From Lepidodermella squamata (Eukaryota; Animalia; Gastrotricha), in NCBI GenBank assembly GCA_047495785.1, contig JBLDXI010000019.1:496001-560000 (forward strand): a stretch of 64,000 bases of DNA. The letters are read 5' to 3'. This document shows, one piece after another, positions 18,501-40,645 of this stretch; the stretch's first letter is position 1; each line of letters starts with the position of its first letter. The translations under genes and the position numbers were made by a program. The notes below the pieces were generated by a model, which saw nothing but the letters and a program-made list of their open reading frames with translations, was not told the origin of the DNA and searched no databases.

Positions 18501-20925
18501 GTCAGACTCAACTTCGAGGTGAAGTCATCTGGTGACGGCTTTGTCATCTTCATGTGTCCGGAGGAGGACTTCGGAAACCCAACTGGTGCTTATCTGTTGC
18601 CAGCCGATTTTCGCGGACTGGCTGTTATTGTGGATCCTAGTGGAACCGTACGAGTGGCTTACAGCGTAACAACAAGGACAGGGGATGTATTAAGCATTAA
18701 GCCTTCGTTTACTTTGAGAAACCAAGAAATATTTGGCTTCACAACGTATCAGATATCGATTACCAAAAGTAGCACAAAAGTAATGCCCCGTCGAGTTCTT
18801 GAATAAACATGAATATATATCAAATTATCTAGGTTTCACTGGGGTCTCCGAGTGGTAAATCGTTAGAGTTGGTTTCTAAGTGGACTATGCCAGCTTTCGG
18901 CGTTGCTGGTCCTTGGCTGCTAGGTGTTGCAGCTAGTAATTCGCTGGCTGGGTCGTCTCAAGTTCGGATACATTCACTGGCATACTGGACCTCAAACACG
19001 ATGACTAATCCAGATATCATCAATGAAACTGGCATGGCTTGCTAAAATTCTACTTTCAAATATCGAACCTTTATTTTTTACACAGAATCGTATCAACCTC
19101 GATATTCGTTTGATAGCTTCAATTTAGGTGAGACTTGAACATGCAAAATGAATCGCTTCTCAATTTGTTTATCCTTAGGAGAGAATTGGATAGTTCGAAG
19201 CAAAGGAACTACGAACGCTGACTTTGACTCGTCACCGCCTTATCTCGAAACCAACCGCAATATTCCCTGCATGATGCTCTTGCCTAATGTGATAGGTCGC
19301 CAAGTGGTTATGTACGCAAGAATGGTTAGGCATTTAGATATTTCAGCATCGAATATATTGATGTCTGCTTCTAGCCATTTGTAATGAGCGGAACCTCTGG
19401 TTACCTCATAAAAGCGAGTTTATCGGTTATTAGCAACGGTGGCGGCGATGGCGTAGATCTTTTTTTAGCTAACGCTGAAAGTTTGAATTCGAAAAATTGG
19501 ACTTGTAAGCATTGTTATCCCTTCCTATCTCTATTTTGGTTATTTTAATTATCAAGTCACAAACGCCGAATTTTACCTGCAATTCCCTACACGTGGTTTG
19601 CATTACGTGCTGAATACTCGGCAGACAAATTCGTTAAAGCTGGTCTACAGCACCTACCCTATAAACTCAATTTTAAAAGAAAGCGCCTTCTCACCACAAG
19701 TCCTGAGCTTGACAAACGATCAGCTTTATAACTCGTCGTTTTCAAATATCGCCTTCAGTCTATACATCGAAAATGACTACGTCTCTGTAAGTCTATTCAC
19801 GTATTAGATGATTTACCGACATTACTAGCTTTTCAATCTGCAAGGCGAACTTCACTGACATGAAAGGCAACGTTTATCAATTAGCGGACAAGATTGTAGC
19901 ACCTTGCCTATCTGCAACAGGCCCGTGGTATCTCGGTATCGCGGCGCGTTCCACTGACAAGACCATCGACGTTTGCGTGAATTCTATTAAAACATATGTC
20001 AACAACGTCACGAGCCCTTATGTTTCGCCGACATGTACGACGACTTCAACTTCAACAAGTTCAAAATCGACAACCTCAACATCGACAACTTCAACAGCCG
20101 AAGTTTCAACAACTACTACGCCCGGAATCTCATCCAAGTCACAAGAATCCTCTTCGACTACGCCTTATATTCCTGAAGCATCGTCTGACTCGCCGTCTAC
20201 TTTAAGGGCGAAAGCGCGTTTGGATTCTACGACTTCATTATTATCGACAGAAACGGATGGGTATTACTCACCATACTATAATATGGGCAAGTCACTTTCC
20301 GGTGAAATACAGCTTTTTCCAACTATGATCTTCAATTTCAGAGGTCAGCGGGAGTCTTGAAACTATTGGAAATATGACCCTTCCCGATCTTACTGTTTTA
20401 CCTGCGGAACCTTGGCCAAAAGAGCTTGATAACTCCAGTCATCCGCTCTTCAAAAGCGTCGCGGCTGTTTTTGCCCGAGAGGTATCAGGTCATGTTCCAT
20501 AAGCTTCTCTTTTATGCCTGTTTATCTTTTTCCAGGTCAACTTGACGTATTTTGAGGCCGGAGCGATAGTTGATAACGTTACAATCACACGAATCTACAA
20601 TGGCAGCGTAATAGCCGACTACATCGTTGTGCTTCGCAGCCTTACGCAGTTAAGCGAGGAGGAAATCCAGGCCAAAGTTAAGATAGCCATACAACGATTG
20701 GCCGAAGCTGCTGTCAAAAGAATCGGGGAGATAATCAAAGCGAATGTTGAAGGCGTTACAGTCCTTTCGAAGCCGCAATATATTAGGACAGCAGCACCAC
20801 TGTCGTATAGCCAACCGACTCGACCGATTATACCTTACGTTAAATCCAGCAATGATTGTTCATCGCTAAACGTCGGAATAATGCAGCTGCTAATCTCTAT
20901 GAATGCTCTAGCGTTCATCTTGTGA
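15591..20925 (+). CDS. Array paralogue B: LamG-like + 4 L-type-lectin-like + Thr/Ser stalk + SEA + probable GPI signal
   Basis: Signal exon MKFEFTILLLPFINHLTCLVSG. Exons collinear with A plus a fourth lectin-like repeat (~19180-20000). SEA 'IYNGSVIADY'. C-terminus 'IMQLLISMNALAFIL'. Confidence 0.78.
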
Positions 20926-21496
20926 CAACAGTCTGGTAATGTATCAATGTTGTTTCGGTTAATAAAATGCATTTAGCTGTTCTTGGTTGAACCTACTTCA
21001 TACAGTTTGTGCGTTCGCTGTCAGACCTGGTTTGACTGAACTGTGACTGGACTGATACCGGTCGAAGCAACGCTTCAAAGCCACGTACCCGGCCTATTTT
21101 GGAAATTGATAAGGATTGGAGTATAAATGCTCCATAAAAATATATCAGGAATAAAATATAAAATAATGATTTTCAGAAATGAAAAAGGCGTACCATAATT
21201 TTTTGTAGCGTCACACATTTGGGTTGACTGCGCAAAAGAATTCCTGATGAACAATTAGTAATCAAATTTAAACTAGCTTGAAAAAGCCGCTCTCATACGT
21301 CATGTCTATTGCGTCGGATTTAATTTCGAATAACTATGAATAACTAGATTTTGAAAAATTGACCCAGCCTTAACCATTAGGCTTTCTTTGTGAGAAATAA
21401 TTAGGGTTTTAAAGGAATACCTTAATTCATTCTCATATGCAGCTATCCCTTTGCGAAGTTCTGGGTCTTTCAAGTTATATGTACATATCCTTAGAC

Positions 21497-22213: not shown

Positions 22214-25200
22214 ATGAGAGCTAGATTAACCTTGATTGTTTTACTTGCGTTGGGAAGTCATTGCACGTCAGTATTAGGGCGTAAGTGTTTATCGGCATCA
22301 TTATAAGTGCTTATTAAGATGTCAGCATTTCTTCAGGACTAATTGGATACTGGCCGCTAACATCAAGAACGCAGTTTGATGTCAACTTGTTTGATGTTAG
22401 TGGGAATGACAACAACGCCAGAATCTGCCCCACTAGCAACGTGACGTTGGATCCGATAGGTCCATGGAACTTCGTGAATGCATCTGTGAAAGTTGGATTT
22501 GACGCTAATAGCTGCATCTATTTACCGAAAACAACCATCTCTCTAAGCCAGTCTTGGACGATTATCGGCTACGTCAATGTCCAGTCAGGCAGCGGTCCAT
22601 TCATCGACTTCGCAGTATCAAACTCTCTTGGGCAAGCACCATTCGGGCCTAATATATTTCTTACTGTTTCACCTGGGGGCGACTCAGTTCGAACCGATTT
22701 GATGAAGCCGAATCTGAATGCGCAAAGTGCCGCAACTTTGGCAAATAAGTGGGTAATGATTACCGCAACGTTCGATGCGCCTTCTTCTACATTCAATACC
22801 TACTTGGACACGACTCTTCTAACTTCTATTCCGACTGCCGGCTATTCGTTTCCTATGCCGAAGATTGGCTACGTGGTTGGGACGCGTTGGAACTCGACTG
22901 GTTTTCTTGGATCAGTTGCGTGCTTTGCCATGTTCAATTCAAGCTTCACGGCCTCTCAAATCGACCTGTTTCAATACATCTGTCGTTCGGCACCGAAAGC
23001 TAGAGCAAATGACTTGATACCAACAAACTACATATATTTTCCGCAGTGGGTAAAAGACCTGTCCCTCTCCATAGCAGGCAGTGGTAATGTCACTCAAACC
23101 AAGGGAGTTCTAATTGCCATAAATTCCAATTTCCTTAGTTGTAAACCCAGGTTTTACGCAATGGTTGGTAACTGGAGCAGCTGAGGCTCAAGAGCTTTCT
23201 CTGACTCTCGTCAAACAGCCGAATCAGTTTGGTGGCATATGGTCAACTGCGGTAACGAATTTTGCATGTTTTTTCAATCGAATCACTTTGCATTTAAACA
23301 GCCAATCACTCCGTCACACATACGCTTTGAGGCAACGTTCAGCCTTCAGGGCACTGGTAATCTTTTCGGCATCTTCATTGTCGACAAGTACTGTAATATC
23401 CGGCACGGTACGGATACCACACGGGTTCGATATAGAGAGTAAATAACAGTCAGGCAGAAATGATCCAAAACTCCTCATTTTATTGTTATTGTGTTTCAGT
23501 ATTTATACTGCGGCACGCAGGCCGCTTATTGGTTGGTATGCGGACCAATCGCGCTCGACTTGCGTGTCGCGCGTCCGCATAGCACATTCCCCAGGTGAAA
23601 TAGTGCTTTACTCCTGGAAAGCGGGAAAAGCGAAAGGAGTGTAACGGCAAGAGAAAAGTTCGAAGGTGATATTGTGAGAGAATTTACAATAAATAAGATC
23701 ACTGGTAAATATATATACAAACTTCGTGATTTTGATTTTCAATAGTAGAAGCGCTTTTTGCGCGGCTGTGGTTTTGGTTCCGCTTCATTGGCTTTGTCGA
23801 GCGGAATGGCCGTTGACGGTGTTTCGTATCCTGGCGGTTGTGGGGCGGTTGGGACTTGAAGTGTCGGCATTATTGTCTGGATTTGGAGCGGATTTGAAGG
23901 GCGATTTCTATTGCAGATGAGGTAAATGATTGCGACGGTGTTCAGTGTCAGTATGAGAGAATTCGCTCCGGTTGGGAGAATCGATAGCAGCGCTGAGTGG
24001 GTGTCGTTGGAGGAGCCGATTTGTCCAACGTAGATACTCATCAGCTGCGTGAAGAGACCTAATTGTGCCGAGCTGGCGCTGATATTTTCGACGAGCCGCA
24101 GTGTTGTAGCATCATTCCGGTTGAACTCGTCACGCATGGTTGAATCCTTAAGGCTGGCGACGATTTTATCGATATTTTTGCTGTGTTGGGTCGGGTAGTC
24201 GCTGGTATTGGGGTCAAGTAGCTTTAATCGACCCGACTCGGTGACCGTTAGTATCTCTTGGCGCAGATCCTCGTCGCATTCAAAGGCCGATGGGTGTAAT
24301 TCGAGGTCGCCAATTTTAATGATGTGGTTGCAAGAGAGGTGGAAAATGTGGCCACTTTGCGAATATTTTCGGCTAAAAATTTGTTTTCTGGCGGTGCCAT
24401 TAACGCGCCAGAGTGAGACAGTCGCCGGTTTTTGAAGGAGGAACGAGCTGTGGTTGAGTCGCACAACATCGCTGGCTTGTTCGCACCAGTTGAACTCGGC
24501 TTTCGAGCTGATAACGGGGTCGAGAGCTAAGGCGTGCTCGGAATCAGCGACGAGGCCGGTCTGTTGTAGCCAGTCTGGTGTCGTGGAAATATCGCAGAAT
24601 TCAAGTGGGCAGACGATTTTGTGGGGTGAAATTGTGGTACAGGCGTCGAGACAGCTGGTAGGAAATAAGCGGACGGGCTGGTCTGAGCATTGGATGGCGG
24701 ACATGCCGATGTAGACAGATCGCGGGGCCGTTAAACAGCTGCGGTTGCCAAGCAAGCTGATCGGGGACAACGCGATGATGTTGCAGACCGAGTTTCTTAT
24801 TATCGGAAGTTTCGCTCGAATTGTAACGTCGATGACATCGGGTTGATCGGCGCCGGTGATGGACATCCAGGCCGAGACAAACAATGGGACACCCTGGGTT
24901 AGTAATTTGACCGTTTCGTTGTGCCTGGGTGAGATTTGTAGCTGGCGGATGATTTTTGTCGCCATGGCCTCGGTCATTTCATAGGTACCGAACGAGCCAT
25001 CGTTTATGCCTACTCGGATGCGTTCGACATGCGCGAACTGGTCACGCATCGCTGCCTGCTTTGTGAAGTGAAAAGCAGTCAGTTTATTGAAGTTGTGCCA
25101 CTTCTGCCGATCGCTGGTGTATTCGCTGGTCAAATTTATGAGCACATCTTCCACGGCTTGCAGACGTTGTCCTAGCCGGTGGGTTTGTTTCGCCAGCAGC

Positions 25201-28200
25201 ATTGTGGCGTTGCCAATTTTTCTGATTTGAGTCTCATCCTCTTTTAAAGCAGCCGTCGCTGCGTAGAGGGCTTTCTTCGTATTTTCGTCAGTAGTTGAGC
25301 AACCGTTGTGTGAGAATAGTTCGTTGATGCCACGTAGAACTATCGAGGAGCAGATCCAGTCTAAGTCACGCCTGGCGCGGTATCGTTTCCCAGTCACTGT
25401 CGACGAGGCGGTCAGCTTCGCGGTCGACGGCTGGCACTGAGTGGCCCACTGCGACAAACAGTCGAACTCTGAGAATCCGAACGGCGGTATCGGCGTACAC
25501 CATTTTCCGAGATAGGCGGCACATGATTTCAATTTGTCCCAAGGCGACGGAGCGAGCGATGTCCCAGTTTCCTCCCAAAAATCGAGTACGTGTTGAACTT
25601 CTTCCGGATAAAATTGGCGAATAAATTTCGGCTTCTGAAACTCAACTTGCATATTCAAGGCGGTTAAAATCACGTCGTCGAACATGTAGACCAGCTGTTT
25701 CTTAGTGCCTTTGAGCAATGCTTGCGGGAAAATCACGTGGTCAGAAGTGAAAGCGTCCGTGTTAAGTTCGATTTGCCGTTTTGAACGCGTAGCGCTGGCT
25801 GAAGAAATTAGCGAAGCGGCGAGTGTGGCTACGGCAAGCCACAGGCGAAGGCCAGTAAGCGACATCGAGATTCGTTAATGAGTAAATATCAAGAAGTATT
25901 TACAGTTCGAATAAATGGTTGATTAAATTTTTCGCTCAAATAAAATCTATACAGTAGGAGAAGAATCTGTATTGTTTGACGATTGTTTCTTTCTCGAAAT
26001 TTTGGTGATTTGTGTTCTTCGAGTGTGTGCCTTGCCGGATTTCGGCGATGTTTGAACAACGGGGTTGGCGAAAGTTACTCGCGTGCGAAGGTTATACGGC
26101 TGATGTACGACCGTAGCGTCAAGATCTGACTTATTGAGCGAGTAGTTTCTGTCGGAGGTGACGCTAGTAGAGGACTTTTCAGGCGTCGTCACGCTTGATT
26201 GATTTTTCTCGGGTGACGAGGCTGGACGGTGTTGCGGGGCCACCGATTGCGGTTGGACAGGTGGTACAAGGCTAACCAAGTCCATGCCGAACTGGAATGG
26301 TGTTGGTCGTCGGTGGAATCCTGGCGATGCTGTCAAATGGCCAGTGTTTTGCATTCGAAATTTGTGGGCTGGTGTTGACGTTATTATTGGACTGAAATGG
26401 TCGATGTTTGACGGTGCTGACATGGATGAATGGCGATTATCTTCGTCTGAGGTAGACGGTGCTGGCCCAGTTATTATTGGTGGTGACGGCATTCTGGGCG
26501 GTGTTTCAGGCAATTCTGACGTGCTTGGGGTACGTCGTCGCGGTACCGGTGGCGTTGTTGGCGTCGTAGTCGCCGACGTCGCGGTTGACGGCGTTGTACT
26601 TGCGGTCGTTGTAGTCGGTGTTGTACTTGTAGAAGTCGCCGTTGTAGTACCCGAACTGGCCGAGGTCGGCCTTTTCGAACTACGGAGTATGTACCCACCC
26701 GTCGTGAAATTGTTGTCACGGGTTGGCTCATGAACAATCTGGCGGCTAAGTGTCTGGCGAAGATCAGGTAACGGCGACGCAGCGGCGGCGGGCGGTCGCG
26801 GCGCAGTCGACGCAGGCGCCGCAGCGCCGGGCGGCGCAGCCAACTTTGTAGCGCTCTTCGCCGACGAACGGGCCGACTGTTGCGCTTGCGAATAGCGATC
26901 AGCCGTGGGGAAGTCGCGCAACCAGGCCAACTTGAGGCGGTTGCGATGGGCAAGGATATCACGACCGGACAGGTCAAAGAAGCGAATAGCGTAAGTAACG
27001 GGCGAAACTCGAGCCACGACGGAATACGGGCCCTTGTAGCGAGATGCGAATTTCGGTATCACATCGGGCCGGTTACTTGGCACGTGGAGGTAGACAAGAT
27101 CGCCGATATCGAACGGCTCGCAATTTCCTGAACTGCGATCATAGCGCTCTTTCTCACGAGCACGCGCGAGTTGGAAACGAGTTCGAACGTCGTCGAAAGC
27201 GCGACGGAGTTTGACATACAAGCCGTAAGCATGATTTTCACGCAACTCGTTCTGAGTCTTGGGCTGGGACGCAGGCTTCTCGGCGGAGCACTGCCAGTCC
27301 ATAGCCAACTTGGGCATGTGACCTAGCATAATATACGCTGGTGGGTGGCGATGAGTCGAATGGTGAGACGAATTGTAGCCAGAGCAGCAGGCCTTGACGA
27401 AGCGGCACCAGTCGAGGTGCTGGCCGGGCACGACGTATTTCGCGATGCAGTTATTCATGACTAAATTCAAGTGTTCGCAATGGCCATTAGTCTGCTGGTG
27501 ATAGGCGGAGCTTTTAATACGACGAATCGCAAACGCATCAGTCACGTCCTCGATGAGCTTGGAGATGAAGTAGCGGGCGTTGTCATTGAGCAACGCACGC
27601 GGGCTACCGAAAATGTAGATCCAGTCGAGCAATTTCTCAATCACGGTTTCGGACTTAATATCCGGAATGGGCTCCCACAGCGTGAAGCCACTGAAATGAT
27701 CGGAAATGATGAGAATATAGCGCATGCCACGACGAGACGTAGGGTAGGGACCGGCTACGTCCCAGGTGAGAAGCTCATTCACGTCATGCGAGAGGATGGG
27801 CTCCATCGGAGCACGTGGATGTTTTACAGGGTGATCACGAATTTGGCACACCGCGCATGATTTGACGTATTCAGCAGTAATTTCCTCGTAATTGCGGAAA
27901 TAGAATCGATCTTTTAAGGTGGATAGGGTGCGTTCAACGCCGAAATGACATTTCTCGTCGTGCATAGCGTGAAGCACGGTGACGATGAGATTCTCAGGTA
28001 CGACGATTTGGTAACCCGATTCAGAGGCAGGGTAGTAGCGACACAACAAGCCGTCAGGCGCTATGAAATACTTGCTACGCTGCTTCTGATTGTGACGAAG
28101 GCGGCGTTTCTTGGAGCGACAACGACGATCGGCGGCTTGCGCCGAAATCAAAACATCGCGAGTCAAGTTAACGCCACACGGCGTGAGGGAGCGGAACGGG

Positions 28201-31200
28201 TCGCCCTCGTGGTACGCGTTCTCGTCGACAACAACGTCGTCATCGAAAGTAAGATCGGACGTCATAGCGTTGATGCTGGCCGGGAGTGGCGTAGCTCGAT
28301 CAGGCATACGCGACATCGCATCGGCATTCGCATGAGTTGAACCTCGGCGCGTTATTATATTCAGCGGATATTGTTGTAGGATCATCAGGTAGTTGGACAA
28401 CCGACCTCCGGTGTCCTTCCAGGTGTTCAAAGTACGAAGAGCAGCGGCGTCAGTAATTACGTCGGTGGTAATCGAATTCAAACCCGGCGAGATGTAAGGC
28501 TTAATCTGCTTCAGCCCGTACAGGACGGCAAGAACCTCACGTTCACAACTAGAATAATTGCGCTCGGCCTTAGTCAGATTTCGAGAACCGAAAGCGACTG
28601 GGCGCCGGGTACCGTCGTCCTGGTCTTGTTCGAGAACGTAGCCGAGACCGGACCCCGACGCATCAGTCGATAAAATAAATTTCTTGTCAAACTGAGGGAA
28701 GGCCAAACAAGGCGGCGAGATCAACGCCTTTTTGAGCTCATTAAAAGCGTTCTCGGCATCCTTATTCCAGTGAAAGTTGTTCTTACGTTGTAGCTCGTAC
28801 AACGGAGCTGCGATCATCGCAAAATTCTTGATAAATCGCCGATAATATCCGGCTAACGAGGTAAAAGCTCGAAGTTCGCTAACCGTCGTAGGGACGGGAA
28901 AATTCTGGACCTTCGAAACTCGGTCCCGAAAGATAGATAAACCATCCTGGCTAATAGTGTGGCCAAGATAGGTGATGGAGCGACGAAAAAGTTGGCATTT
29001 CGAACCCTTAATTTTCAAGTTCATTTTACGCATGCGCTCAAGCACGACGCGGAGATCATGAAAATGTTGTTCTTTATTCGGGCTGAAAACTAGAATATCG
29101 TCGAAATAAGTGGCGACGATGCGGCCCAGTAAACCAGTCATGCAGAACGTGAGCAGACGGTTCCAATAGGCCGGGGCGGTTTGAGCACCGAAAGGCATTC
29201 TATTCATGGTCCAGGACCCTTGGGATGATCTGAACCCTAAATATTGCTTTGAATCTTCGGACACTTTCATGTGAAAATAAGCCTGATTTATATCAATAGC
29301 TGAGAAAATGCGGGCTTTCGACAATAAATCAAACTGGCTCCAAATTTGCGGTATTGGGTGTGAGCCGTCATTCACAGTCATGCTATTTAGGCGGCGAAAA
29401 TCATGGGCTAGGCGCAGTGAACCATCCTTTTTCCTCAGGGCAAGGAGGCAGCTACTATACGGCGTAGCAGCCGGCTCAGCAATGCCGTGTTTAACCCAGT
29501 CTTGTATTTCTTTCTCAACCATTTCCCTCTCATGATGTGACTGACGCCGAAGCGGCTGAATGAACGGCGGGCCTTCGACCTTGACCTTGAACTCAAGGGC
29601 ATCGCACAGGCCGATGTCCAGCCTATGGCGCGCGAAACAATCCTTGAATTCGCTCAACAAACTACGCATTCTACGGCGTTCATCAGTGGATAGTTCCGAC
29701 TTTTCCAAGTCGACATCGGGCTCCCAGTCATCGCGGGCGTCGGCCGGCGGCGGCGACGGCCGTTTGGATGACTGGCGGTTACGATCAGCGCCTATTATGT
29801 CTATGTGGACACCCTCGACGAGAAAGGCGGCGACTTTTTGGCCTCTATAGATTTTCACAGGTGATCGCCCGGGGTTGAGTAACACGACCCAAATACGACC
29901 CTCATCATCTACCTTGGAAATTGAGCGTGAGACGACAAATTCGCGCTCATGATTTTGCGTGTCGCTAGGCTCGTCATGTAAATTATCACTAACGACGGTT
30001 TTTCCCGTAAGACCATGACCCGTAATGCGTGCACGGACGCGGATGGGCTTACCCGGCGGAAGAACTACATCATCCAAAGACGCTGCACGCAAATCCGGAT
30101 GCGTGACTGCGTTTATGGCGTACGGTGAATACGGCGCGGCGTGTAACGGAATAGAACCCGCGTCATCACGCAGAAAAATAACATTACGAGAATTGCTTAT
30201 ACTGTCGGCGAACTTGTACGTAAAATCGTGACCTAACAAGCCGTCGGCATGCAAATTCCGAATGAAATAAAACTGGTGTAAAAATTCGTGTCTACCGAAG
30301 CGTATCGGGATAGTCGCCTTGCCCAAAACTTGCAAGGGCTGGTTATCAGGCCCGTTGGCTTTAGCGGGCTCAAGGCGAATACCAGGGTAAAGAAAGCGGG
30401 CATCGATGCAACTATGAGTCGCACCGGAATCGAGAAGCATGGCAACATGCCGAAGTGAGCAACTATCATTTTCAGCAACGTCAACTAAATCCATGTGAGC
30501 GACGAGGCCGCTCGGAGCGTGTGAACAAGAAGAAGACGGTAAAGTAGTGACAGATGAAATAATAGCGGGACAGGTGGCATCGGCGGAGGCGTGTCCGGTC
30601 CCATCGGACGGCCTCCTTAATAGTTTAAATGATCGCCACGCTGTTCACGCGCGTCATAAGACAAACGCGGCTGATAATCACGATCGCGCGACGGAGTACG
30701 GCGCATGCCGCGCTGATGATAGGGCGAGTGACTAGAACGGTAGTCATCGCGAGAGCGACACCGATCGGCGTAATGACCAGGGCGGCGGCATTTATCGCAA
30801 ACAGGGGTGCGAGGACGGCGGTCGTCCCGCTGTTGTAGCAAGTCGCGCATCTTGGAACGGCACTCGGCCTCGACATGGCCGGGCTTCGAGCAATAATAGC
30901 AGGACGGGCGCGAACCACCACGCCGATTATCATTATTAGAAGTGTTGTTATTATTATTACCGTTATCGCGGCTGCGGTAGGCGGACCGGTTGTTGTAACT
31001 ACCACGGCCCTTGTCGCTGTAGCTCGGCTTGTTGCGACCAAGCTCCTGAACCTGCGCGGTCAGCGCGTTGACAGCTTGAATCAGCGCCGTTTCGGTCGGC
31101 TCAGCCTTAACGACGGCGGCAGCAGCAGGCGGCGCCGCAGCGGCGGGCGCAGGCGCAGGCGGTGCCAACGAGGCGGCCGCGCCTGGCGCGTAGTGCGGGG

Positions 31201-34200
31201 CGAGCGCGACCGGGGCCGGCGGCACATATAGAGGCGTACCTAACGAAGTCGCCGTCACGTGGGTGACCGGCGGCGGCGCGGCGCCAGGCAGGCCAATGGG
31301 AAAACCGGCATGGTTAAGGCCGAACGACGGCTGAGCATAAGGCTGGGGATACGAGGGAGTGTAAGAGACATGGCCGAATCCGGCTGGAAGCAGGGCCTGG
31401 GCGCCGGCAGGGCCGACGCGGATCGAGGTATCCGCGACCTCGGCGAGGCGCAATAACTCCTCGCACGTTTGAGGTACGCCAAGCATAGCCATACGCTCAC
31501 GAATAGCAGGCAAAATGCCGAAATAGACCCGATTAACAAGGTCCTTGCTAGTGTTTTCGGGTTCGCCACGCCCGGAATCAATCCACAAACGGCGAATAAC
31601 GTCATAATACTGGCGAACGGTCTCGCCAGGGTATTGAGGGCGAGAATAAAACTGCATCGAGGCTAACACGGTGTCCGGCGCGAGGCCAGACGCGGCGAGA
31701 AGCGCCTTCCGCGCCTCATCAAAAGTAGTAAAACCAGAATAGTCAATAGTCGCCCACACCCGCTCAAGTTTGTTCGACAGAAACAAGGGCAGCATGTGGA
31801 GGACATGTTGTAACGGGTGTAAGTGATTATCAGTGTCGCAAATGTAAGGCGCGACTTTAGCAAAACGACCCCAGGACGAAACGAACTCGTCGTAGGAATC
31901 GCCAGAAATCTGGCCGACACGCACGAGCGCCAGCTCGATAGGCATGGCGAAGGCGGCGGCCGCAGTAGTAGGCGCCGGCGGCGCGGGACGGCCAGGCGCA
32001 GCGCTCGTGGCCACGCCAAAACCGGGAACACCACCAGACAGAGCAGACCCAGCAGGGCCGGAGGAGCCGGATGCCATTAGACCGTAAAAAACGAGAAAAT
32101 GAGTGTGATGTGGCGGTAAAAGCAACGAAAAACCACTTCTGACACCAAAATAGTGTAATATCCGGCACGGTACGGATACCACACGGGTTCGATATAGAGA
32201 GTAAATAACAGTCAGGCAGAAATGATCCAAAACTCCTCATTTTATTGTTATTGTGTTTCAGTATTTATACTGCGGCACGCAGGCCGCTTATTGGTTGGTA
32301 TGCGGACCAATCGCGCTCGACTTGCGTGTCGCGCGTCCGCATAGCACTTGGACACGACTCTTCTAACTTCTATTCCGACTGCCGGCTATTCGTTTCCTAT
32401 GCCGAAGATTGGCTACGTGGTTGGGACGCGTTGGAACTCGACTGGTTTTCTTGGATCAGTTGCGTGCTTTGCCATGTTCAATTCAAGCTTCACGGCCTCT
32501 CAAATCGACCTGTTTCAATACATCTGTCGTTCGGCACCGAAAGCTAGAGCAAATGACTTGATACCAACAAACTACATATATTTTCCGCAGTGGGTAAAAG
32601 ACCTGTCCCTCTCCATAGCAGGCAGTGGTAATGTCACTCAAACCAAGGGAGTTCTAATTGCCATAAATTCCAATTTCCTTAGTTGTAAACCCAGGTTTTA
32701 CGCAATGGTTGGTAACTGGAGCAGCTGAGGCTCAAGAGCTTTCTCTGACTCTCGTCAAACAGCCGAATCAGTTTGGTGGCATATGGTCAACTGCGGTAAC
32801 GAATTTTGCATGTTTTTTCAATCGAATCACTTTGCATTTAAACAGCCAATCACTCCGTCACACATACGCTTTGAGGCAACGTTCAGCCTTCAGGGCACTG
32901 GTAATCTTTTCGGCATCTTCATTGTCGACAAGTACAAAACCGCCCGACCAGGAAGTAAGTTGCGATATACCCATATTTTTCGGAACGCAATTGTCTTCCT
33001 TACACCAGCAACACGGTATTTCGAAGTGGAGGCTTCCTCTTTCATAGGACTCGGCGTTATTTTCGACGCGAGCAAAGGATTGGCCTACTTCATTTACAAT
33101 AGAGTGGCCAATCCGCGGATAACAGATGCCAACTATTATCGCGATCAACCGATAAAGCAGCGTGAAACAACCGCTGTCGGAGACCTCAAGTCGGGAAGGC
33201 AAACAATTGTGCTGGAAATCGTTAACGAGGGTTTGACAGTATACCAGCTTCTGGACGGAGGCTCAGTGAGGAAGCTTTTCGACAATTTCAATATTCGAGG
33301 AATCATCTCCCTCATGCCAGACCTTATGGTTGGTGTCTCCGCTTTATCGAATGGCCCATCGCCTTGCTCAGTGGAGTTACTGAGTTTTCAGAGCTATTAC
33401 ATTTTATTAAGCGACGGACCTAAATGTTTCATGCCTTATTTATCGCTTATCGACAATTCTAACAAAGGTATGTATCGCCGGCCAATGTAATTTTTAAAAT
33501 GCAATTTGGCAAACAGGAAACTGGACTGTTGTAACGAAGCCTATTGATAACAGCGGTGAAGTTACCTCGAAGCTGATCGATTTTTCAACAACAACAGGAT
33601 TTCTTCTCTCGAGTCGAGAAGACGTCGGAATGCAGTCCGCGATCTATTCCGTGCAGGTTAGAATCTTAATCTAAGCAACACTGAATAAGTTGTTTTTCTT
33701 TTTATTCAAGAATTGGCCGATAGATTCTTCGGATATATTGGCCGTTTTCTGTGTCAACGTCGAAAATCAGCCCCAAGGCGATGGCTTGACCATCTTTTTC
33801 GTACCACCTGGTAGCTTCAATAATGGCATCAAATGTAAAGAAATTCATCTTACGAATCTGGAAAGTTTTATATATTGTAATATCTTAGCGGGACCTGGCT
33901 ATCTACCTCAACCGTTCAAGGGCTTTGCAGTCATAGTAAACGGGCCGAATTCGTTCCTTCGAGTTGTCTACGAAGACGCGGGGGCGGCTAATGCTTTGAG
34001 ACCAGAAATCATACTTTCCAACTTTGATAAGGCAAACCCTCAGATTGCGTTTGGCAACACATGCTACGAGATTTCTATGAACAACAACGAAGCTTTTGTT
34101 AGATGATCGAAATAAGTAATTAATGCCCTTGTTTTCTGAAGAGTTTTTCTTTATCAGGTTGGCGTATACAATGAGTCTGGTGCTTATATCCCTCTCGCAA

Positions 34201-37200
34201 GAAACGTTTGGCTACCGAATTTCAAAAAGCTGTCACCTTGGGTTATCGGCATTGGGACGCAGAACACAGTAGTCGGCCATGAAGTTCGCATTTATTCCAT
34301 AAAATTTTTCAAGCTGTTGCCTGATAACAGCCGGGGACAGCAAGAACTCGCTGTTGATGTGTCTAATCCGCTTGGAAACGGAGGATTTGGTTTGCAAGCG
34401 TTGCGTGTGAATGCTTTTTATGTTGATATTTTCAGGTGACTGGCGAGTTGAGGAGTCCTTGTCAGCGTCGTTTCAACCTTACCAAATCTTTCCACCCCCA
34501 ACTGCAATAACCAATCGTGGCTACGCATTTCTCGATAAGACAATGAATAAAAAAGTTCGATTTATTTATGCAAAGGTGGGCTACGCAGTCCCAGAGGGAT
34601 CATTGTAACTTTCTCATTTGGATAGCCCTACTATCCGTCTTCTGGAGGATTGAATCTAATGTTCAGGTTCAACATGGAGTTGAATGCGACTGGGGATGGT
34701 TTCGCTATATTCGTAATCCCTGAAGAAGACGTCAACAGCAAAACTGGTGCATATCTACTCCCGGCAGATTTCCGAGGCTTCGCTCTCATAGTCAATCCTA
34801 TAAATAATACCGTCACTATAGTTACGAATGTACTGCCTATGAAAAAGAGCGTGACAGACTTCAAGGCTTACACGGGAAAATCGTGGCAACCCATTTATGG
34901 ATTTACCTCTTACGAAGTGAAATTGGGATCGGACTCCTTATCCGTAAGTCATTCATCTCTATAATAATTGGTTCTGCTGACGCCCTTGTACAAGTGTAAA
35001 TTGCGAGCAGCCAATGGCGATGTTATTGACTTTGGCCCAATATCGTACGGTATACTTGCAGTCGGTGGACCTTGGGTCGTTGGTGTTGCGGCAACCAATA
35101 GCGAAAGTGGCGTCTCTCGAATTCAAGCAAATTCATTGAAAGTGAGCCTCGGAGGAGATTCGCAGAACCCTGATTCGTCTCCTGAGCAAGGTAAGTAAAC
35201 CCTTCGAATTATTTTCGCTCGTTTGTTTTTATTTCTCACAATGCCCTGTTGTATTCTAACATTGATAAACATTGATATGCCATTCCAGGAATTTATCAGC
35301 CCCAGTTCTCCTTCGATGGTTACAATTTGGGTAGAATTTTTTCCGTCCTGACACAACCCTTTTGATTGATTTTTTTATTTCAGGCGAAAATTGGATAGTT
35401 CGAACAAAAGACAGCGATAACTTGAACTTGGCATCCAACTTTGCGAACCTTCAAACAAAGAACGTAGCTATGCTAAAGCTGCACCCCTACTCTAAATCAC
35501 GTCAAGCGGTTATATACACCAGAAAGGTCCGCTCATTTTGTCGCTCAGTGTTTATTTCAAACCTGATGTTTTAGCCCTTGGCGCTGACGACAACATCTGG
35601 CTATGTTATAACCCTTAACCTCTGGCTAGTAGGTTATGGCGCTGGCGCTGAAGGATTTGATATTTTCCTGGCCAATGCAGAGAGTCTAAACGTGTCTAAT
35701 TGGCAGTGTAAGTTTCTTTTGCAATTTATTTATCATTATTGATTCTAAAAATATGCTGGCCACCAGATGGCAATGCCGAGTTCTTCTTACAACTCCCAGT
35801 TCGTGGGCTACATTTCCTTGTCAACCCGAAGCAAAAGAATGCTGTGAAAATGGTCTATAGCTACCTGCCGATGACATCTCTGATTAACGGACCTCAGTTC
35901 TCCAATGAGAATGTGTATTTGAACAATAGCCAATTATGGTTTACAAACGGATCATATACTTACTCGAACATTACCGTTCGCCTTACTGTGGAGAGTGATT
36001 ACGTTTCGGTAAGATATCCTGTATACAATATAATCCCTCGTTCATCCCTTGGGCGAATAGGGCTCTCTTCGCGATATACAAGATAACGTGTACAACATTG
36101 CCGAGAAGCAAATGGCTCCTTGGCTGTCGATTGCGGGGCCTTGGCATCTCGGAATCGGAACCAAAGCACCCACCAACACCCTAGAACTTGGCGTTCTTTC
36201 CATTCGAACCTACTCGTTGCTTAAGCCAATGACGGTAACCACGTCAACAACCTCGACCACGACCACAAGTACGTCCCCACCTTCTACAACATCTGCCACG
36301 ACCACAACCACGTTGCCTTCTTCTACATCGCCGACCACAATTCAAAGCACGTCCCTTTCTTCTACAACATCGACCGCAGCCACAAGCACGTCATCTACAT
36401 ATACGACGTTGACCACTACCATAAGAACGCCATCTTCTTCGACCAGGATTTCAAGCACTTCACCTGGTTCAAGTAATTCTTCAAATAGCACCCGGCTTTC
36501 CACAAGATCAGCAGCAACTACTAAACGAAAAGTCGAGCCAAGCTTTTACAAGATCAGTGAGTTTTCCGATGAAGGGTTTGACAAAGATATTTCGAGATAT
36601 GTTAATGCAGGTGTCACTGGTATGATTGAGGTTGAGGGTAACATGACGCTGCCGGATGGAACAGTTCTGCCGTGTGAGCCTTGGCCTGAAGAGCTCGACA
36701 ACTCCAGTTCCCTCTTGTTCAAGAGCGTAGCAGCTGTCATGGCTAACGAGGTATCGATCTGAAAGCTAAAACTTTCTTCATCTGCATCTTTATTGGTTTA
36801 TTTTCACAGATTGTGTTGACTTATTTGGCGTCAGGCGCAGCTAATGTGTCAGTGAACATCACTCGAATCTTCAAAGGAAGTGTCATCGCTGACTACATTG
36901 TGGTACTTCGGAGCCTTACGCAATTAAGCGAAGAAGAAATCAGTGCCAAAGTAGAGATTGCCATTAAGGCACTAGCCGCAGCTGCTGCCGCGAGAATTGG
37001 CCAGATTGTCTCAGCGAAAGTGCGAGGTGCTCAGATCATCTCAAGACCCCCGACCACCACCCCAGATCAGATTGAGTTCACTTACGATCAAGAGGGTGAT
37101 GCAGGATCGGGAATAACGCAGGAAGCTGATAGCGGCCCTACTAAACAAGTCACTATCCTCGGGTTACGAAACATCTCCGATTTTACTTACGATCGTGGAT

Positions 37201-37355
37201 TGGGAATAACGCTGGGCCGCATTGGTGGATTTCCAAGCACTTTGAAGACTCCAAGCGCATTTGGCCGATCCGCTGCATCCAATATTAGAACAGACATTAT
37301 TTTCAAGCTTCTGAATTTGTTTAGTCTTTTCTATTATAATGATTTTCAAGCATGA
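22214..37355 (+). CDS. Array paralogue C, interrupted in exon 4 by the LTR retroelement (possible pseudogene or splice-rescued gene)
   Basis: Signal exon MRARLTLIVLLALGSHCTSVLG at 22214. Exons 2-4 run to 23391, then the element. The gene resumes at 32348 with duplicated sequence and continues, apparently intact, to the SEA exon 'IFKGSVIADY' and TGA at 37355. Confidence 0.75.
22804..23391 (+). repeat. Left copy of ~588 bp host direct repeat flanking the retroelement
   Basis: Identical by eye to 32348-32935 (offset 9544), including two introns. Confidence 0.92.
23392..23586 (-). repeat. 3' LTR (195 bp, TG...CA)
   Basis: Minus strand TGTGCTATG...GATATTACA. Contains CCAAT, TATAAATA and AATAAA on the minus strand. 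Matches 32154-32347. Confidence 0.95.
23587..23595 (-). promoter_or_regulatory. Polypurine tract (short)
   Basis: Minus-strand ...CCTGGGGAA immediately precedes the 3' LTR TG. Confidence 0.65.
23739..25865 (-). CDS. env: Envelope glycoprotein, class I fusion-protein-like, 708 aa
   Basis: Third ORF between pol and the 3' LTR. Signal peptide; furin-type sites RSKR and RYRARR; a hydrophobic putative fusion peptide followed by a heptad-repeat region; Cys-rich ectodomain with N-glycosylation sequons; TM 'SLILTLNTVAIIYLI'; short tail. Confidence 0.85.
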   Translation of the reverse strand: MSLTGLRLWLAVATLAASLISSASATRSKRQIELNTDAFTSDHVIFPQALLKGTKKQLVYMFDDVILTALNMQVEFQKPKFIRQFYPEEVQHVLDFWEETGTSLAPSPWDKLKSCAAYLGKWCTPIPPFGFSEFDCLSQWATQCQPSTAKLTASSTVTGKRYRARRDLDWICSSIVLRGINELFSHNGCSTTDENTKKALYAATAALKEDETQIRKIGNATMLLAKQTHRLGQRLQAVEDVLINLTSEYTSDRQKWHNFNKLTAFHFTKQAAMRDQFAHVERIRVGINDGSFGTYEMTEAMATKIIRQLQISPRHNETVKLLTQGVPLFVSAWMSITGADQPDVIDVTIRAKLPIIRNSVCNIIALSPISLLGNRSCLTAPRSVYIGMSAIQCSDQPVRLFPTSCLDACTTISPHKIVCPLEFCDISTTPDWLQQTGLVADSEHALALDPVISSKAEFNWCEQASDVVRLNHSSFLLQKPATVSLWRVNGTARKQIFSRKYSQSGHIFHLSCNHIIKIGDLELHPSAFECDEDLRQEILTVTESGRLKLLDPNTSDYPTQHSKNIDKIVASLKDSTMRDEFNRNDATTLRLVENISASSAQLGLFTQLMSIYVGQIGSSNDTHSALLSILPTGANSLILTLNTVAIIYLICNRNRPSNPLQIQTIMPTLQVPTAPQPPGYETPSTAIPLDKANEAEPKPQPRKKRFYY
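25947..30622 (-). CDS. pol: Pol polyprotein (protease, RT, RNase H, integrase), entered by -1 frameshift from gag
   Basis: PR 'LLDSGATHSCI'; RT 'YFDDILVFS'; RH 'STDASG...NADAMSR'; IN HHCC 'HDEKCH...CAVC', D-D-E 'WDVAGP/DNARYF/GHCEHLN', GPY 'YKGPYSV'. The frame is open from the slippery site to the first ATG at 30494. Confidence 0.95.
30567..30629 (-). promoter_or_regulatory. -1 programmed ribosomal frameshift signal (U UUA AAC + stem-loop/pseudoknot)
   Basis: Heptamer at 30629-30623 is in the gag frame, with one codon between it and the gag stop. After a 6-nt spacer come stems GGAGGC/GCCTCC and GTCCG/CGGAC, whose loop GGGAC is complementary to a downstream GTCCC. Pol is in the -1 frame. Confidence 0.85.
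30617..32077 (-). CDS. gag: Gag (486 aa) with two CCHC zinc knuckles
   Basis: First ATG downstream of the PBS (MASGSS). Capsid-like 'QYPGETVRQYYDVIRRL'. Knuckles CYYCSKPGHVEAEC and CDKCRRPGHYADRC. Confidence 0.92.
   Translation of the reverse strand: MASGSSGPAGSALSGGVPGFGVATSAAPGRPAPPAPTTAAAAFAMPIELALVRVGQISGDSYDEFVSSWGRFAKVAPYICDTDNHLHPLQHVLHMLPLFLSNKLERVWATIDYSGFTTFDEARKALLAASGLAPDTVLASMQFYSRPQYPGETVRQYYDVIRRLWIDSGRGEPENTSKDLVNRVYFGILPAIRERMAMLGVPQTCEELLRLAEVADTSIRVGPAGAQALLPAGFGHVSYTPSYPQPYAQPSFGLNHAGFPIGLPGAAPPPVTHVTATSLGTPLYVPPAPVALAPHYAPGAAASLAPPAPAPAAAAPPAAAAVVKAEPTETALIQAVNALTAQVQELGRNKPSYSDKGRGSYNNRSAYRSRDNGNNNNNTSNNDNRRGGSRPSCYYCSKPGHVEAECRSKMRDLLQQRDDRRPRTPVCDKCRRPGHYADRCRSRDDYRSSHSPYHQRGMRRTPSRDRDYQPRLSYDAREQRGDHLNY
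32133..32147 (-). promoter_or_regulatory. Primer binding site, tRNA-Leu type
   Basis: Minus strand TGGTGTCAGAAGTGG is complementary to the metazoan tRNA-Leu 3' end (...CCACTTCTGACACCA). It lies 6 nt inside the 5' LTR. Confidence 0.85.
32154..32347 (-). repeat. 5' LTR (194 bp; outermost base missing)
   Basis: Identical to 23392-23585, but ends ...atagcac instead of ...atagcaca on the plus strand. Confidence 0.95.
32348..32935 (+). repeat. Right copy of ~588 bp host direct repeat
   Basis: Identical by eye to 22804-23391 and followed by the continuation of exon 4 (aaaaccgcccgacc). Confidence 0.92.
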
Positions 37356-37569: not shown

Positions 37570-37700
37570 TCATAGGACACTAGATAGCAATAAAAGAACT
37601 AGCTGCCGCCTGTGCAGGGAAAATCGGTTCGATTGCCTCGGCGAAAGTGTAAGGCTTTCCGATCAATTCAAGATCCCCGGTTACAACGCCGGATCCAACA
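37570..37700 (+). pseudogene. Degenerate remnant of the SEA-domain terminal exon
   Basis: ctagctgccgcc...aaaatcgg...gcgaaagtgtaaggc...gccggatccaa aligns to 58870-58970 and has an in-frame stop. No upstream exons. Confidence 0.6.
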
Positions 37701-38362
37701 TGAAGATCAAGGCAGTGATCAAGGCCAACGAGCAACCATTATACGAAAATGGTAGCGCAAAATTAACACAAATACGGTAGTGCTACGGCAGGACTACGGC
37801 GAGTACTATTTCAGTGCTACGGCGAGCTTGACATGTTCCAGGGTATGCAACTAACAGCTGGTATCCCCGGGAACTCACTGACAACGTGAGTCGGGAAAGG
37901 AAAGCTCCGGAAACCGTCAAATCAGGCTCTGATTTTCTGGCCTGAAATCAGCCAATAGCCGGTTTGACATCGCAGGTAACGACTACAAGGGGGCATTGGT
38001 CAGTAGTCAGTAGGGACGTTGGTCAGTCCCTATTCATCATACCCGGCTCCGCCTTGTTACTGTAGACCTCCTGGTAGTATGTGAATACATTATTTGATGG
38101 TTTGACATGAACTAACACGTGTTCTACAAAGAGACTCTACAGGTGATCAGGTGATTGGTTAATGCGAGTCTATAATTGGTGCTATGCTATTTTGTTTAAT
38201 TTCAAAAATTTCAAGTCAGGGCGAATTTTTAAAAATGCTTCGGCGCCGAAATGACTGGCCGTACCGGCACCGTAGCAGTGCCGTAGTTTGCGGTGGTAGT
38301 AGTAACGGTGCGAGGGCTATAAAGTTCGACATTCGCGGATTTCCACTCCACTGCTGCTAATA

Positions 38363-38809
38363 CCGTATTTCATCAAATAATAGCCATGGCTACTATTTTT
38401 TCTGAAACTCCGAAAATGGTCCAAAAAAAGAGGCAATTATTCGAGGGGGCTATTATTCGAGGGGGGCTATTATTTATCGGTAATTGGCAAATTTCATCAT
38501 CGCAAGTCGTTTGCGCTGTTGAATTCTCTGTTTTTTGACCCATGCTGCTAATTAATCCTCGGCATAAACAAACAACGGCTTACGTCCACCACCTTTAATC
38601 CGCCTAGCAGTATAAAGCGACGCAATTAGGACAGCTTTTTCCCTCCTCCTCTCTCCTCCAGCGCGCCACCTGCTTCGGACAAGGCATGGCGTGGCTATTA
38701 TTCGAGGGGGGCTATTATTTACTTTTAAATGCTCAAAATAGCCTAAAATTTCGGGCTATTATTCGAGGGGGCTTTTATTCGAGGGAGGCTATTAATCGAT
38801 GAAATACGG
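38363..38809. mobile_element. Tc2/pogo-type (Tc1/mariner superfamily) MITE, 447 bp
   Basis: 23-bp TIRs ccgtatttcatcaaataatagcc / ggctattaatcgatgaaatacgg (21/23 match), TA on both flanks, and internal repeats of ggctattattcgagggg. Confidence 0.85.
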
Positions 38810-40645
38810 TATATTAGAATAGGGTTCTATGATAATTGAGCAAACAAAAAGAGAGCAAGGGCTTTAGAGCAAATCGACAAAAGAGCAAATTATAATCAGC
38901 GCAAAAAGTTGTGGTAGTCTGTTAAATTGTGCGCGTTAGCCATCCAAATTGCAAAACAATTAGGTTCCCACTTATTAGATTCATTAAAAATGCCCTATGA
39001 GTTAATGCTAATAGAGTCAAATCTCGTGTGTGTTATTGATGCGCATTTTGCATTGAATCTTCTCACAACTTGTTTCTTCTTCGAGTGACGAATAGTCATG
39101 ATTACGCAACACAGGTTTGCAGGGTGCAAATAATCGATTTTTCGTTATCGATTTTCTCCGCAGCGAAATCTAATCGCACAATGGGACTTGGTTCATTATT
39201 ACCGTAATATTGATATTTTTTCAAGAATTCAGGAGTTGGACAAGTTTGCGGCCGGATATATAATGGCTGATCCACGGTACAAAGTTCGTAATTAGTGTTC
39301 TTTAGCATCATTGTCTGTGCCCATAGGGATGTGCCCGCGTGGCTGAAAATTTCAGGGTTCTAAATTCCCCCATTTTCCGATCTGCAGTAAATAATTCAAC
39401 GTGTTATCTCAAAAATGTTACACATGGCAACGGTGGTTCAATTTTTTGCTAAAAATATATCGTTAGCGTCGTTAAAAAACTCGGATGCCTCAGTCGATTT
39501 TCTCCAGTCGATAAATCTAGTTTGGGTTGAACTTTGGCTTTCTCAAATTTCCGTTAGAATGGGGTTCGAGAGAAAAATTGTATGACGAAAATGCTGTCCG
39601 CGGCTTTTATTAAAAATTCTCATTTTTGAAAAATGGCATTTCACATGAATTGAGGTTGGATCACCATCCTGCGAAAGCTTTATTGGAAATTTTGGAAAGT
39701 CTGGCAAGGGAGAAAATCAACTAAGGCCACATCGGATGCAAACATTTCATTTTTCCAAATTTCAAACGGATTATTTGATGTTCTTGCGATATATTCATTC
39801 TGATGGACCAGAAGCATTTTTCAAAAATGAAAAACGTATGAGAAATAGCAAAACGCATTTCTTGCACAACTTTTCGAAGGTACATCTTTTTGATACACGT
39901 TCTTAGGTAATATTCTTAGGTAATCAGATCACACCTGCTCTTCAATTTGCTGAAAACCGCGTCTTCATATCCCTTATGGTTGAAAAGTTATAAAAAAAAG
40001 CGAGGCAAAAAGGTTCGCGCACACTTTATGTTTACTGAGATTGGCGAATTCGAGTAGATTCGCGTAGTTGCGTTTCGCAGCGGACGAAGTACACTTTGAT
40101 TTTCTGACAGTAACGATGTTCCATCTGTTTGCCTACAGTTGACTAGTTTCGGTGCAACACATAAAAGGACAAGATTTTGAAAATAATGAGCAAAAGTTGT
40201 GTTTATAAATTCTTTTTGGGAGGATCTAATAAAATGCAATTCCCACAACATGGCAAATAGGAAGAAGCTCAGAATAGCCTAGTTGATTATAATTCTAGGC
40301 GACGCAAATTAGTTAGGTAGCCAATCAATTGTATGATTTAAACGAGGTGTTTGAATATCATTTATTTTCAAGTGCCTAAGATCTTAGGAGAGTTTTGAAA
40401 TGGCAGGAAATTAAATCTGTTGAAAATACCTAGTTACGTAGCTTAGTGGCTTAGTTTAGTAGTCCTTTGTGTAATTCGAACTCAATTAAAATTCAGGTGT
40501 TCCTTCGTTAGAAACTTTCTTCACGGCCAAACATATATTTTTCCTGTTTATTTATCATCATCAGGACTATATAACGGTGTTGAAATTTGAAATTTAAAAA
40601 ATCAAAAGTCACTCTGGAATCGTTTTAAAAGAGAACTTTTTTTAA

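What the first reader, a model, noticed from the sequence alone, without database searches (positions are those of the whole stretch)
23084..32845. The duplication may let paralogue C splice the whole retroelement out as a ~9.6 kb intron
Seen: the insertion falls in exon 4, 19 nt before its donor. The duplicated block contains complete introns 2 (23084-23138) and 3 (23252-23301), and these recur at 32628-32682 and 32796-32845. Splicing donor 23084 to acceptor 32682, or donor 23252 to acceptor 32845, would give an exactly wild-type mRNA. The element is antisense, so its poly(A) signal is on the other strand, and the downstream exons appear undecayed. Inference: a self-neutralising exonic insertion. 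Caveats: this genome uses tiny introns, and including the 113-nt exon 3 twice would frameshift.
Basis: inference. Interest (0 to 1): 0.8.

Follow-up and report, generated by a model that had tools for sequence, protein, structure and literature searches.

The report
Retrotransposon with 590-base host duplication
A complete retrotransposon sits inside an exon of a lectin-like gene between two identical 590-base copies of that gene's DNA, likely the scar of a botched one-ended integration; it could in principle be spliced out to give normal messenger RNA, but in a gene family whose introns are nearly all about 54 bases long it more likely truncates the gene.

Summary
The geometry is confirmed. 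An intact, antisense, env-carrying Ty3/gypsy element (23392-32347) lies in exon 4, flanked by an exact 590-nt host duplication holding introns 2 and 3. Either long splice (9599 or 9594 nt) would restore wild-type mRNA. The structure matches one-ended aberrant integration known from retroviruses: one canonical end, one end clipped by 1-3 nt at a 2-nt microhomology. Long flanking duplications are known for HERV-K. Efficient rescue is unlikely. 53 of 54 paralogue introns are 100 nt or shorter; 94% of 590-nt blocks in this gene hold a whole intron, so that is no sign of design; the best-scoring acceptor on the gene's strand lies in the LTR, and local routes stop at 355-402 aa ahead of an AATAAA at 23688. 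Zero divergence between copies makes undecayed exons uninformative. The one DNA run laid, a different haplotype, showed only the empty site. No RNA run was listed, so splicing is untested, and the junctions rest on the assembly alone. The scan noted similar logic on other DNA (a LINE duplicating an acceptor), also unproven. Verdict: a real, probably young knock-out allele of a known kind; trace rescue possible.

The parts
22214..23391 (+). Host gene paralogue C, 5' part: exons 1-3 and first 90 nt of exon 4 (N-terminal hydrophobic stretch, LamG-like domain, start of a lectin-like repeat)
   Evidence: (PF13385, E 4e-09)
22802..23391 (+). Duplicated host block, copy 1 (590 nt, including the 2-nt microhomology at its start)
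   Evidence: 0 mismatches
23084..23138 (+). Intron 2, copy 1 (55 nt)
23252..23301 (+). Intron 3, copy 1 (50 nt)
23392..23586 (-). 3' LTR of the element, full length (195 nt, TG..CA); its outer end is the canonical junction
23408..23499 (+). Predicted cryptic short intron on the antisense strand of the LTR (donors 23408 and 23439, acceptor 23499; 92 or 61 nt); repeated at 32170/32201-32261
   Evidence: best pair 14.9 bits; 8 of 500 shuffles reach it
23587..23595 (-). Polypurine-tract-like stretch next to the 3' LTR
   Evidence: sequence
23688..23693 (+). First AATAAA on the host gene's strand inside the element; candidate premature poly(A) signal
   Evidence: use untested
23739..25874 (-). env-like ORF (708 aa from first Met; RSKR and RARR motifs, hydrophobic stretch near residue 636); look-alike of F-type fusion proteins
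   Evidence: no Pfam hit
25947..30644 (-). pol ORF, open: protease motif, RT, RNase H, integrase
   Evidence: (Ty3 Gag-Pol best, E 3.3e-72)
30617..32236 (-). gag ORF (stop to stop), open, two CCHC knuckles
32136..32147 (-). Primer-binding site, 12 of 12 match to a tRNA-Leu 3' end, 6 nt from the LTR
32154..32347 (-). 5' LTR, identical to the other over 194 nt but lacking the terminal base; last 2 nt shared with the host block
32346..32935 (+). Duplicated host block, copy 2, with introns 2' (32628-32682) and 3' (32796-32845)
32936..37355 (+). Rest of paralogue C: last 19 nt of exon 4, introns 4-18, lectin-like repeats, Thr/Ser-rich stalk, C-terminal region

Best explanation
An intact env-carrying Ty3/gypsy element lies antisense in exon 4 of paralogue C between two identical 590-nt host copies, likely made by a recent one-ended integration, and the allele likely yields truncated RNA or none rather than repaired mRNA. 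Shown: the left LTR end is canonical, the right end lacks 1-3 nt and shares 2 nt with the host, and the copies are identical. Inferred step 1: integrase joined only the left end; the free 3' end of the right LTR primed on host DNA about 590 nt upstream, was extended by a host polymerase and was resolved by recombination, which duplicated the block. Inferred step 2: introns 2 and 3 of copy 1 are removed locally as in the empty allele, which uses up the two donors long before copy 2 is transcribed. Inferred step 3: the RNA reads into the LTR, may lose a 61- or 92-nt cryptic intron there, stops at 355-402 aa and is likely polyadenylated near 23688 or degraded. At most a trace of transcripts would make a 9-10 kb splice (I put any detectable rescue at about 0.25). 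The direct repeats would also allow scarless loss of the element by DNA recombination.
For: Junction anatomy. Contigs of run X1 show an A after position 32347, both in the joint 32347 to 23587 and at the start of loose ends, so other copies keep the base that this end lacks. PMC5041404 (passages and Discussion read) describes the same anatomy for HIV and ASLV: one normal end, the other often truncated, usually with a short homology, and host duplications of hundreds to thousands of bp. Youth: 0 of 590 and 0 of 194 differences, three open ORFs, while X1 differs from the window at 3 places inside the block. Splicing: 53 of 54 introns are 100 nt or shorter, median 54; LTR acceptor 9.1 bits against 3.7 and 7.8 for the two rescue acceptors; all three local routes stop at 355, 371 or 402 aa; AATAAA follows the stop within 250 nt in 5 of 6 paralogues examined, so the signal is probably the one this species uses. 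PMC8624252 (passages) states that under intron definition efficiency depends on intron length.
Against: A 2-nt microhomology arises by chance about 1 time in 16. The missing base could be an assembly error. Internal sense AATAAA occurs in paralogues with intact frames (4 in D, 2 in E), so the hexamer at 23688 need not be used. The weight matrices rest on 48 related introns of three paralogues and are rough. The intron-2 pair itself scores low (7.1 bits), so its donor might stay free longer than others. A 447-nt intron exists in paralogue B', so longer introns are tolerated to some extent, and I saw only 64 kb of this genome. The mechanism is borrowed from vertebrate retroviruses in culture.
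Confidence: 0.7

Rival explanations
1. One reading: the element plus one host copy is removed efficiently as a 9.6-kb intron (donor 23084 to acceptor 32682, or 23252 to 32845), so the insertion is close to neutral.
For: Both splices restore the mRNA exactly. The principle has precedent: duplicated splice signals create precise introns (PMC3443670 and PMC4974935, passages), and short-tailed merle SINE alleles, whose 15-bp duplication holds the original acceptor, are proposed to be spliced out fully (PMC7349775, passages). Exon 4 has no donor of its own in copy 1, so no clean local solution exists.
Against: Needs an intron about 175 times the local median and 21 times the longest seen, must beat acceptors 50-55 nt away and the stronger LTR acceptor, and must transcribe through 9 kb of antisense element with 8 AATAAA. 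The merle insert is a few hundred bases and sits at the edge of an existing intron. Captured introns are expected by chance.
Confidence: 0.07
2. Partial rescue through the LTR's own donor: after normal removal of introns 2 and 3, the donor 16 nt inside the LTR (23408) replaces the displaced exon-4 donor and joins acceptor 33008 (1530 aa, six residues replaced by five) or 32459 or 32682 (in-frame proteins of 1660 or 1604 aa with an internal repeat).
For: 23408 scores 5.8 bits, above both host donors, and has the same phase as the natural donor; these products are open to the end. It needs no short intron of copy 1 to be skipped.
Against: The same donor has a 9.1-bit acceptor 92 nt away, which leads to a stop at 371 aa; the long route is still 9.0-9.6 kb.
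Confidence: 0.06
3. The duplication or the whole allele is an assembly artefact, or a somatic event that is not inherited.
For: No read set of the same individual was laid. In X1 no joint from the LTR end to 22804 was listed and no listed piece bridged 23391|23392 (8 of 49 pieces shown). Perfect identity of the copies is also what a mis-join gives.
Against: No N in the window. Both breakpoints fall at LTR termini. Both copies carry the same letters at the 3 places where X1 differs, so two haplotypes were not obviously stitched. The clipped end with microhomology is a known biological signature.
Confidence: 0.1
4. Pseudo-TSD: two independent insertions of this family 590 nt apart (or one in C and one in the near-identical tract of paralogue D) recombined unequally through the element.
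For: The family is multi-copy with several other flanks in X1. The right breakpoint lies in a 203-nt tract where C and D are identical. PMC5488345 (Discussion read) raises such a model for HERV-K.
Against: Needs two rare hits in one gene; predicts two canonical ends, but the right end is clipped; copy 2 carries C-type letters at 22914, 22941 and 22943 equivalents and beyond; identical LTRs.
Confidence: 0.07

Closest known systems
Aberrant one-ended proviral integrations of HIV-1 and ASLV (PMC5041404; passages and Discussion read)
   Same: One integrase-made end, one truncated end with short homology, host duplication of hundreds of bp.
   Different: Those were induced by drugs or mutations in cultured cells; this is an apparently natural event by a Ty3/gypsy element in an animal genome, and it falls in an intron-dense gene.
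HERV-K (HML-2) loci with long target-site duplications of 111, 250 and putatively 450 bp (PMC5488345; abstract, first of four parts and Discussion read)
   Same: LTR element flanked by long direct repeats of host DNA, with empty alleles in other individuals; scarless loss by recombination between the repeats is discussed there.
   Different: Retroviridae, older, not reported there to duplicate whole introns; here 590 nt with zero divergence.
Env-carrying Ty3/gypsy elements (errantiviruses in the wide sense) of metazoans (PMC13524379; passages and two supplement look-ups)
   Same: gag-pol-env order, near-identical LTRs, tRNA-Leu primer site, F-type-like env.
   Different: Placement in their RT tree not tested; flanks are a 590-nt duplication instead of a short one.
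Intron gain by transposon insertion or tandem duplication (AGGT model, ATP2A1, potato RdRp; PMC3443670 and PMC4974935, passages)
   Same: Duplicated splice signals allow precise removal of the inserted DNA.
   Different: Those cases have transcript support and short spans; here whole pre-existing introns are duplicated, each keeps its own partner site, the span is 9.6 kb and no transcript is known. PMC4974935 treats duplication of an entire intron as multiplication of that intron, not as a new intron.
Canine merle allele, SINE-Cf in PMEL (PMC7349775; passages)
   Same: Antisense retroelement whose target duplication includes a host acceptor; competition between the original and an element-borne cryptic acceptor.
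   Different: 15-bp duplication, insert of a few hundred bp at an intron-exon boundary, mammalian splicing; even there the element's cryptic acceptor often wins.

Membership tests
Env-carrying Ty3/gypsy element (errantivirus, wide sense) | gag-pol-env order with protease, RT, RNase H, integrase in that order | tested here: met
   best solved relative of pol is Ty3 Gag-Pol, E 3.3e-72
Env-carrying Ty3/gypsy element (errantivirus, wide sense) | Two LTRs over 99% alike, 5-14 kb apart, and a tRNA primer-binding site | tested here: met
   194 of 194 nt identical, 8762 nt apart; 12 of 12 match to the tRNA-Leu end listed in the supplement of PMC13524379
Env-carrying Ty3/gypsy element (errantivirus, wide sense) | Third ORF is an F-type or gB-type fusion glycoprotein | tested here: inconclusive
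   Atlas look-alikes at 0.95 carry Baculo_F on 19-65% of members, but recognition is low (1615); no Pfam or useful PDB hit; furin-like motifs and one hydrophobic stretch. No structure predicted.
Env-carrying Ty3/gypsy element (errantivirus, wide sense) | RT falls in the errantivirus clade | not tested
   No reference set was fetched
Normal integrase-made insertion | Short (4-6 bp) target duplication and two intact TG..CA ends | tested here: not met
   590-nt duplication, right end clipped
One-ended aberrant integration | One canonical end, other end truncated | tested here: met
One-ended aberrant integration | Short homology at the aberrant junction | tested here: inconclusive
   2 nt only; chance about 1 in 16
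One-ended aberrant integration | Large duplication of adjacent host DNA, confirmed in primary reads of the carrier | tested here: inconclusive
   Present in the assembly; no reads of the carrier were available; X1 shows the empty site
Insertion spliced out as a new intron | Donor and acceptor placed so that removal restores the reading frame | tested here: met
   the one exonic AG|GT in the block (23149-23152) has a weak donor, -1.0 bits
Insertion spliced out as a new intron | Spliced transcript from the insertion allele observed | not testable with these tools
   No RNA holder listed; short reads could not tell the alleles apart, since about 485 nt of mRNA are identical in both routes

The most novel reading that the evidence does not exclude
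A botched integration gave a whole 9-kb env-carrying retroelement its own exit: because the long host duplication carries complete introns, the spliceosome pairs a donor of copy 1 (or the LTR donor 16 nt past the junction) with an acceptor of copy 2 and makes functional mRNA in useful amounts. In intron-dense genomes, where 94% of such duplications would capture an intron, aberrant integration would then be a general route to neutral exonic insertions and to giant new introns.
Probability: 0.1. Interest if true: 0.7.

Novelty: new member of a known kind. Interest (0 to 1): 0.3.

Why it matters
As it stands it is a clean natural example, in a Ty3/gypsy element, of the one-ended integration worked out for HIV and ASLV, and a ready-made test allele: it asks whether an animal with 54-nt introns can splice across 9.6 kb when an exact solution is on offer. 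If rescue were real it would link aberrant integration to precise intron gain. If not, it is a young knock-out in a redundant seven-gene array, revertible without a scar by recombination. My four searches on these points returned no paper on a Ty3/gypsy element with such a duplication being spliced out, but the library lacks most subscription papers and three of the four returned nothing at all, so this is weak evidence of novelty.

Tried and rejected
No whole genome is held, so other copies of the element and genome-wide intron sizes could not be examined. No RNA holder listed; this is no evidence on expression. Run X2 gave no laid contigs. The joint 32566-32754 in X1 is not a splice: its ends are not GT..AG and it most likely comes from paralogue D. 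A naive gene-model script read through intron 2 and chose other introns; paralogue comparison rejected that model. A SEA-like domain and a GPI-like tail at the C-terminus of the host protein are by-eye resemblances from memory; Pfam gave no support and the hydropathy scan showed no strong C-terminal peak. Legume-lectin likeness of exon 4-5 rests on Atlas features only (0.93, 161 of 256 features). Paper searches with no result; one search listed 9 papers, none read and none evidently on point. Drosophila vermilion/412 and C. elegans Tc1 splice-out are recalled, not read. No tRNA gene in the window. Summed contig depth was not used as a copy number beyond a hint.
Full report
Observation. The block 22802-23391 is repeated without a mismatch at 32346-32935. 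Between the copies lies an 8956-nt element with LTRs at 23392-23586 and 32154-32347, identical over 194 nt, and three open ORFs on the minus strand. The empty allele reads 1531 aa over 18 introns. Splicing 23084 to 32682 (9599 nt) or 23252 to 32845 (9594 nt) gives a sequence identical to the empty-allele mRNA, and the crossed splices frameshift. The coordinates and logic of the finding are right.

The element. pol carries RT, RNase H and integrase domains and is closest to Ty3 Gag-Pol among solved structures (E 3.3e-72). gag has two CCHC knuckles. The third ORF has no Pfam hit but resembles F-type fusion proteins by Atlas features (0.95, low recognition). The primer site matches a tRNA-Leu end listed in the supplement of PMC13524379 in 12 of 12 bases. 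It works like, and is probably, an env-carrying Ty3/gypsy element of the kind that paper finds across metazoans; I did not test its place in an RT tree.

How the duplication arose. The left junction is canonical. At the right junction the LTR lacks its last base and shares two bases with the host, so the clip is 1-3 nt. Contigs of run X1 show that other copies keep that base. PMC5041404 (passages and Discussion) describes this anatomy for HIV and ASLV: integrase inserts one end, the other primes on nearby host DNA through a short homology, is often truncated, and is joined by recombination, most commonly duplicating host DNA over hundreds or thousands of bp. The strand direction here fits that model: the free 3' end on the + strand would copy rightwards from 22804. 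PMC5488345 reports 111-, 250- and putatively 450-bp duplications at HERV-K loci and discusses pseudo-TSD and recombination alternatives. Against this reading, two shared bases are weak evidence and the missing base could be a sequencing error.

Age and population state. The copies and the LTRs show no substitution. One public run holds the locus (X1, 0.59 of words). Its contigs cover introns and intergenic DNA, so it behaves as DNA, and it differs from the window at 22474, 22591 and three places in the block, so it is another haplotype. On 22400-23750 it showed host sequence running on past 23391 as in the empty allele, no joint from the LTR to the block start, one 194-nt contig crossing the block start unbroken, and similar depth outside (107.2) and inside (105.5, 137.3) the block; the LTR had other flanks. 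Only 8 of 49 pieces and 6 of 7 loose ends were shown, contigs drop rare variants and depth is no copy number, so this is a hint that X1 lacks the insertion, not proof. It also means that nothing outside the assembly confirms the two junctions.

Would it be spliced out? In C, D and E, 53 of 54 introns are 100 nt or shorter (46-175, median 54); the longest seen in the array is 447 nt. Such genes are expected to splice by intron definition, whose efficiency depends on intron length (PMC8624252, passages). Donors 23084 and 23252 each have their own acceptor 50-55 nt away. With matrices trained on the other 48 introns, 41 of 546 AG sites in the element score at least as well as acceptor 32682, 2 of 546 at least as well as 32845, and those two are the LTR acceptor (23499, 32261); 93 and 39 of 595 GT sites match the two donors. 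The LTR's best antisense pair scores like a median real intron and is reached by 8 of 500 shuffles. Read-through and both LTR splices stop at 355, 371 or 402 aa, ahead of an AATAAA at 23688. The element has 8 such hexamers on the gene's strand against 1.5 expected (0 of 300 shuffles), and 5 of 6 paralogues examined have one after their stop. On the other side, internal AATAAA is tolerated in intact paralogues D and E, the intron-2 pair is weak (7.1 bits), the matrices are rough, and 36 of 204 long-range pairs tested keep the frame open, among them the LTR donor 23408 to acceptor 33008, which gives 1530 aa. All of these need 9.0-9.9 kb introns.

Is the arrangement special? No: 4716 of 5008 possible 590-nt blocks of this gene contain a whole intron. 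Given a long duplication, the splice option comes almost free. Open downstream exons are expected at zero age, and intact D and E provide redundancy, so no selection for rescue need be invoked.

Comparison and novelty. I found no paper on this exact combination, within a library that lacks most subscription papers; supplements other than those of PMC13524379 were not consulted. Shown here: anatomy, reading frames, intron sizes, junction asymmetry. Inferred: the integration mechanism, youth in absolute terms, and every statement about transcripts. No RNA holder was listed, so the question is open experimentally.

Verdict. Real feature, new member of a known kind, interest 0.3. Best reading (0.7): one-ended aberrant integration giving a young truncating allele with at most trace rescue. 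Substantial rescue by either long route has about 0.1 probability and would deserve 0.7.

Noticed in passing
window 10700-64000: Tandem array of seven paralogues (about 10700-14800, 15590-20930, 22214-37355, 40640-46500, 47457-52983, 53578-59103, 59600 to the window end) encoding LamG-like domain, lectin-like repeats and a Thr/Ser-rich stalk; D (1504 aa) and E (1477 aa) have intact frames; no homologue found for the LamG exon.
   Followed up: partly
window 22711-22913 and 22944-23028, against D near 47950-48270: C and D are identical over 203 and 85 nt amid frequent differences; in run X1 the three separating positions carry D-type letters, giving one 318-nt tract. Looks like ongoing, polymorphic gene conversion.
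   Followed up: partly
window 23408-23499 and 32170-32261: The antisense strand of the LTR carries a strong short-intron-like signal; its pyrimidine tract is the reverse complement of the LTR's own poly(A) region. Any antisense insertion of this family in a gene would bring this acceptor.
   Followed up: partly
window 30623-30629, minus strand: gag and pol overlap by 28 nt in the -1 relation, with a TTTAAAC heptamer just before the gag stop; it fits the recalled slippery-site pattern.
   Followed up: no
window 25947-26900, minus strand: pol ends in a long low-complexity Ser/Thr/Pro-rich tail of about 300 aa after the integrase; X1 contigs show several length variants around 26560-27000.
   Followed up: no
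window 32148-32153: Six nucleotides lie between LTR and primer-binding site, more than the 1-3 recalled as usual.
   Followed up: no
window 23387-23391: Other flanks of the LTR in X1 begin to match 3-5 nt before the LTR start (3 contigs), hinting at a target preference like the GTAC at this site.
   Followed up: no
window 43270-43716: Paralogue B' has a 447-nt intron where B has 57 nt: an insert of about 390 nt, the longest intron seen in the array.
   Followed up: partly
window 37582-37698 and 53171-53290: Partial copies of the last exon lie just downstream of C and of D.
   Followed up: no
window 38300-39500: High summed contig depth and many variant joints in X1: a high-copy repeat between C and B'.
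   Followed up: no
window 1857-3032 and about 5600-10100: Single-ORF GNAT acetyltransferase, and a multi-exon gene with Sushi repeats, a Gly/Thr-rich stalk and an apparent membrane segment.
   Followed up: no
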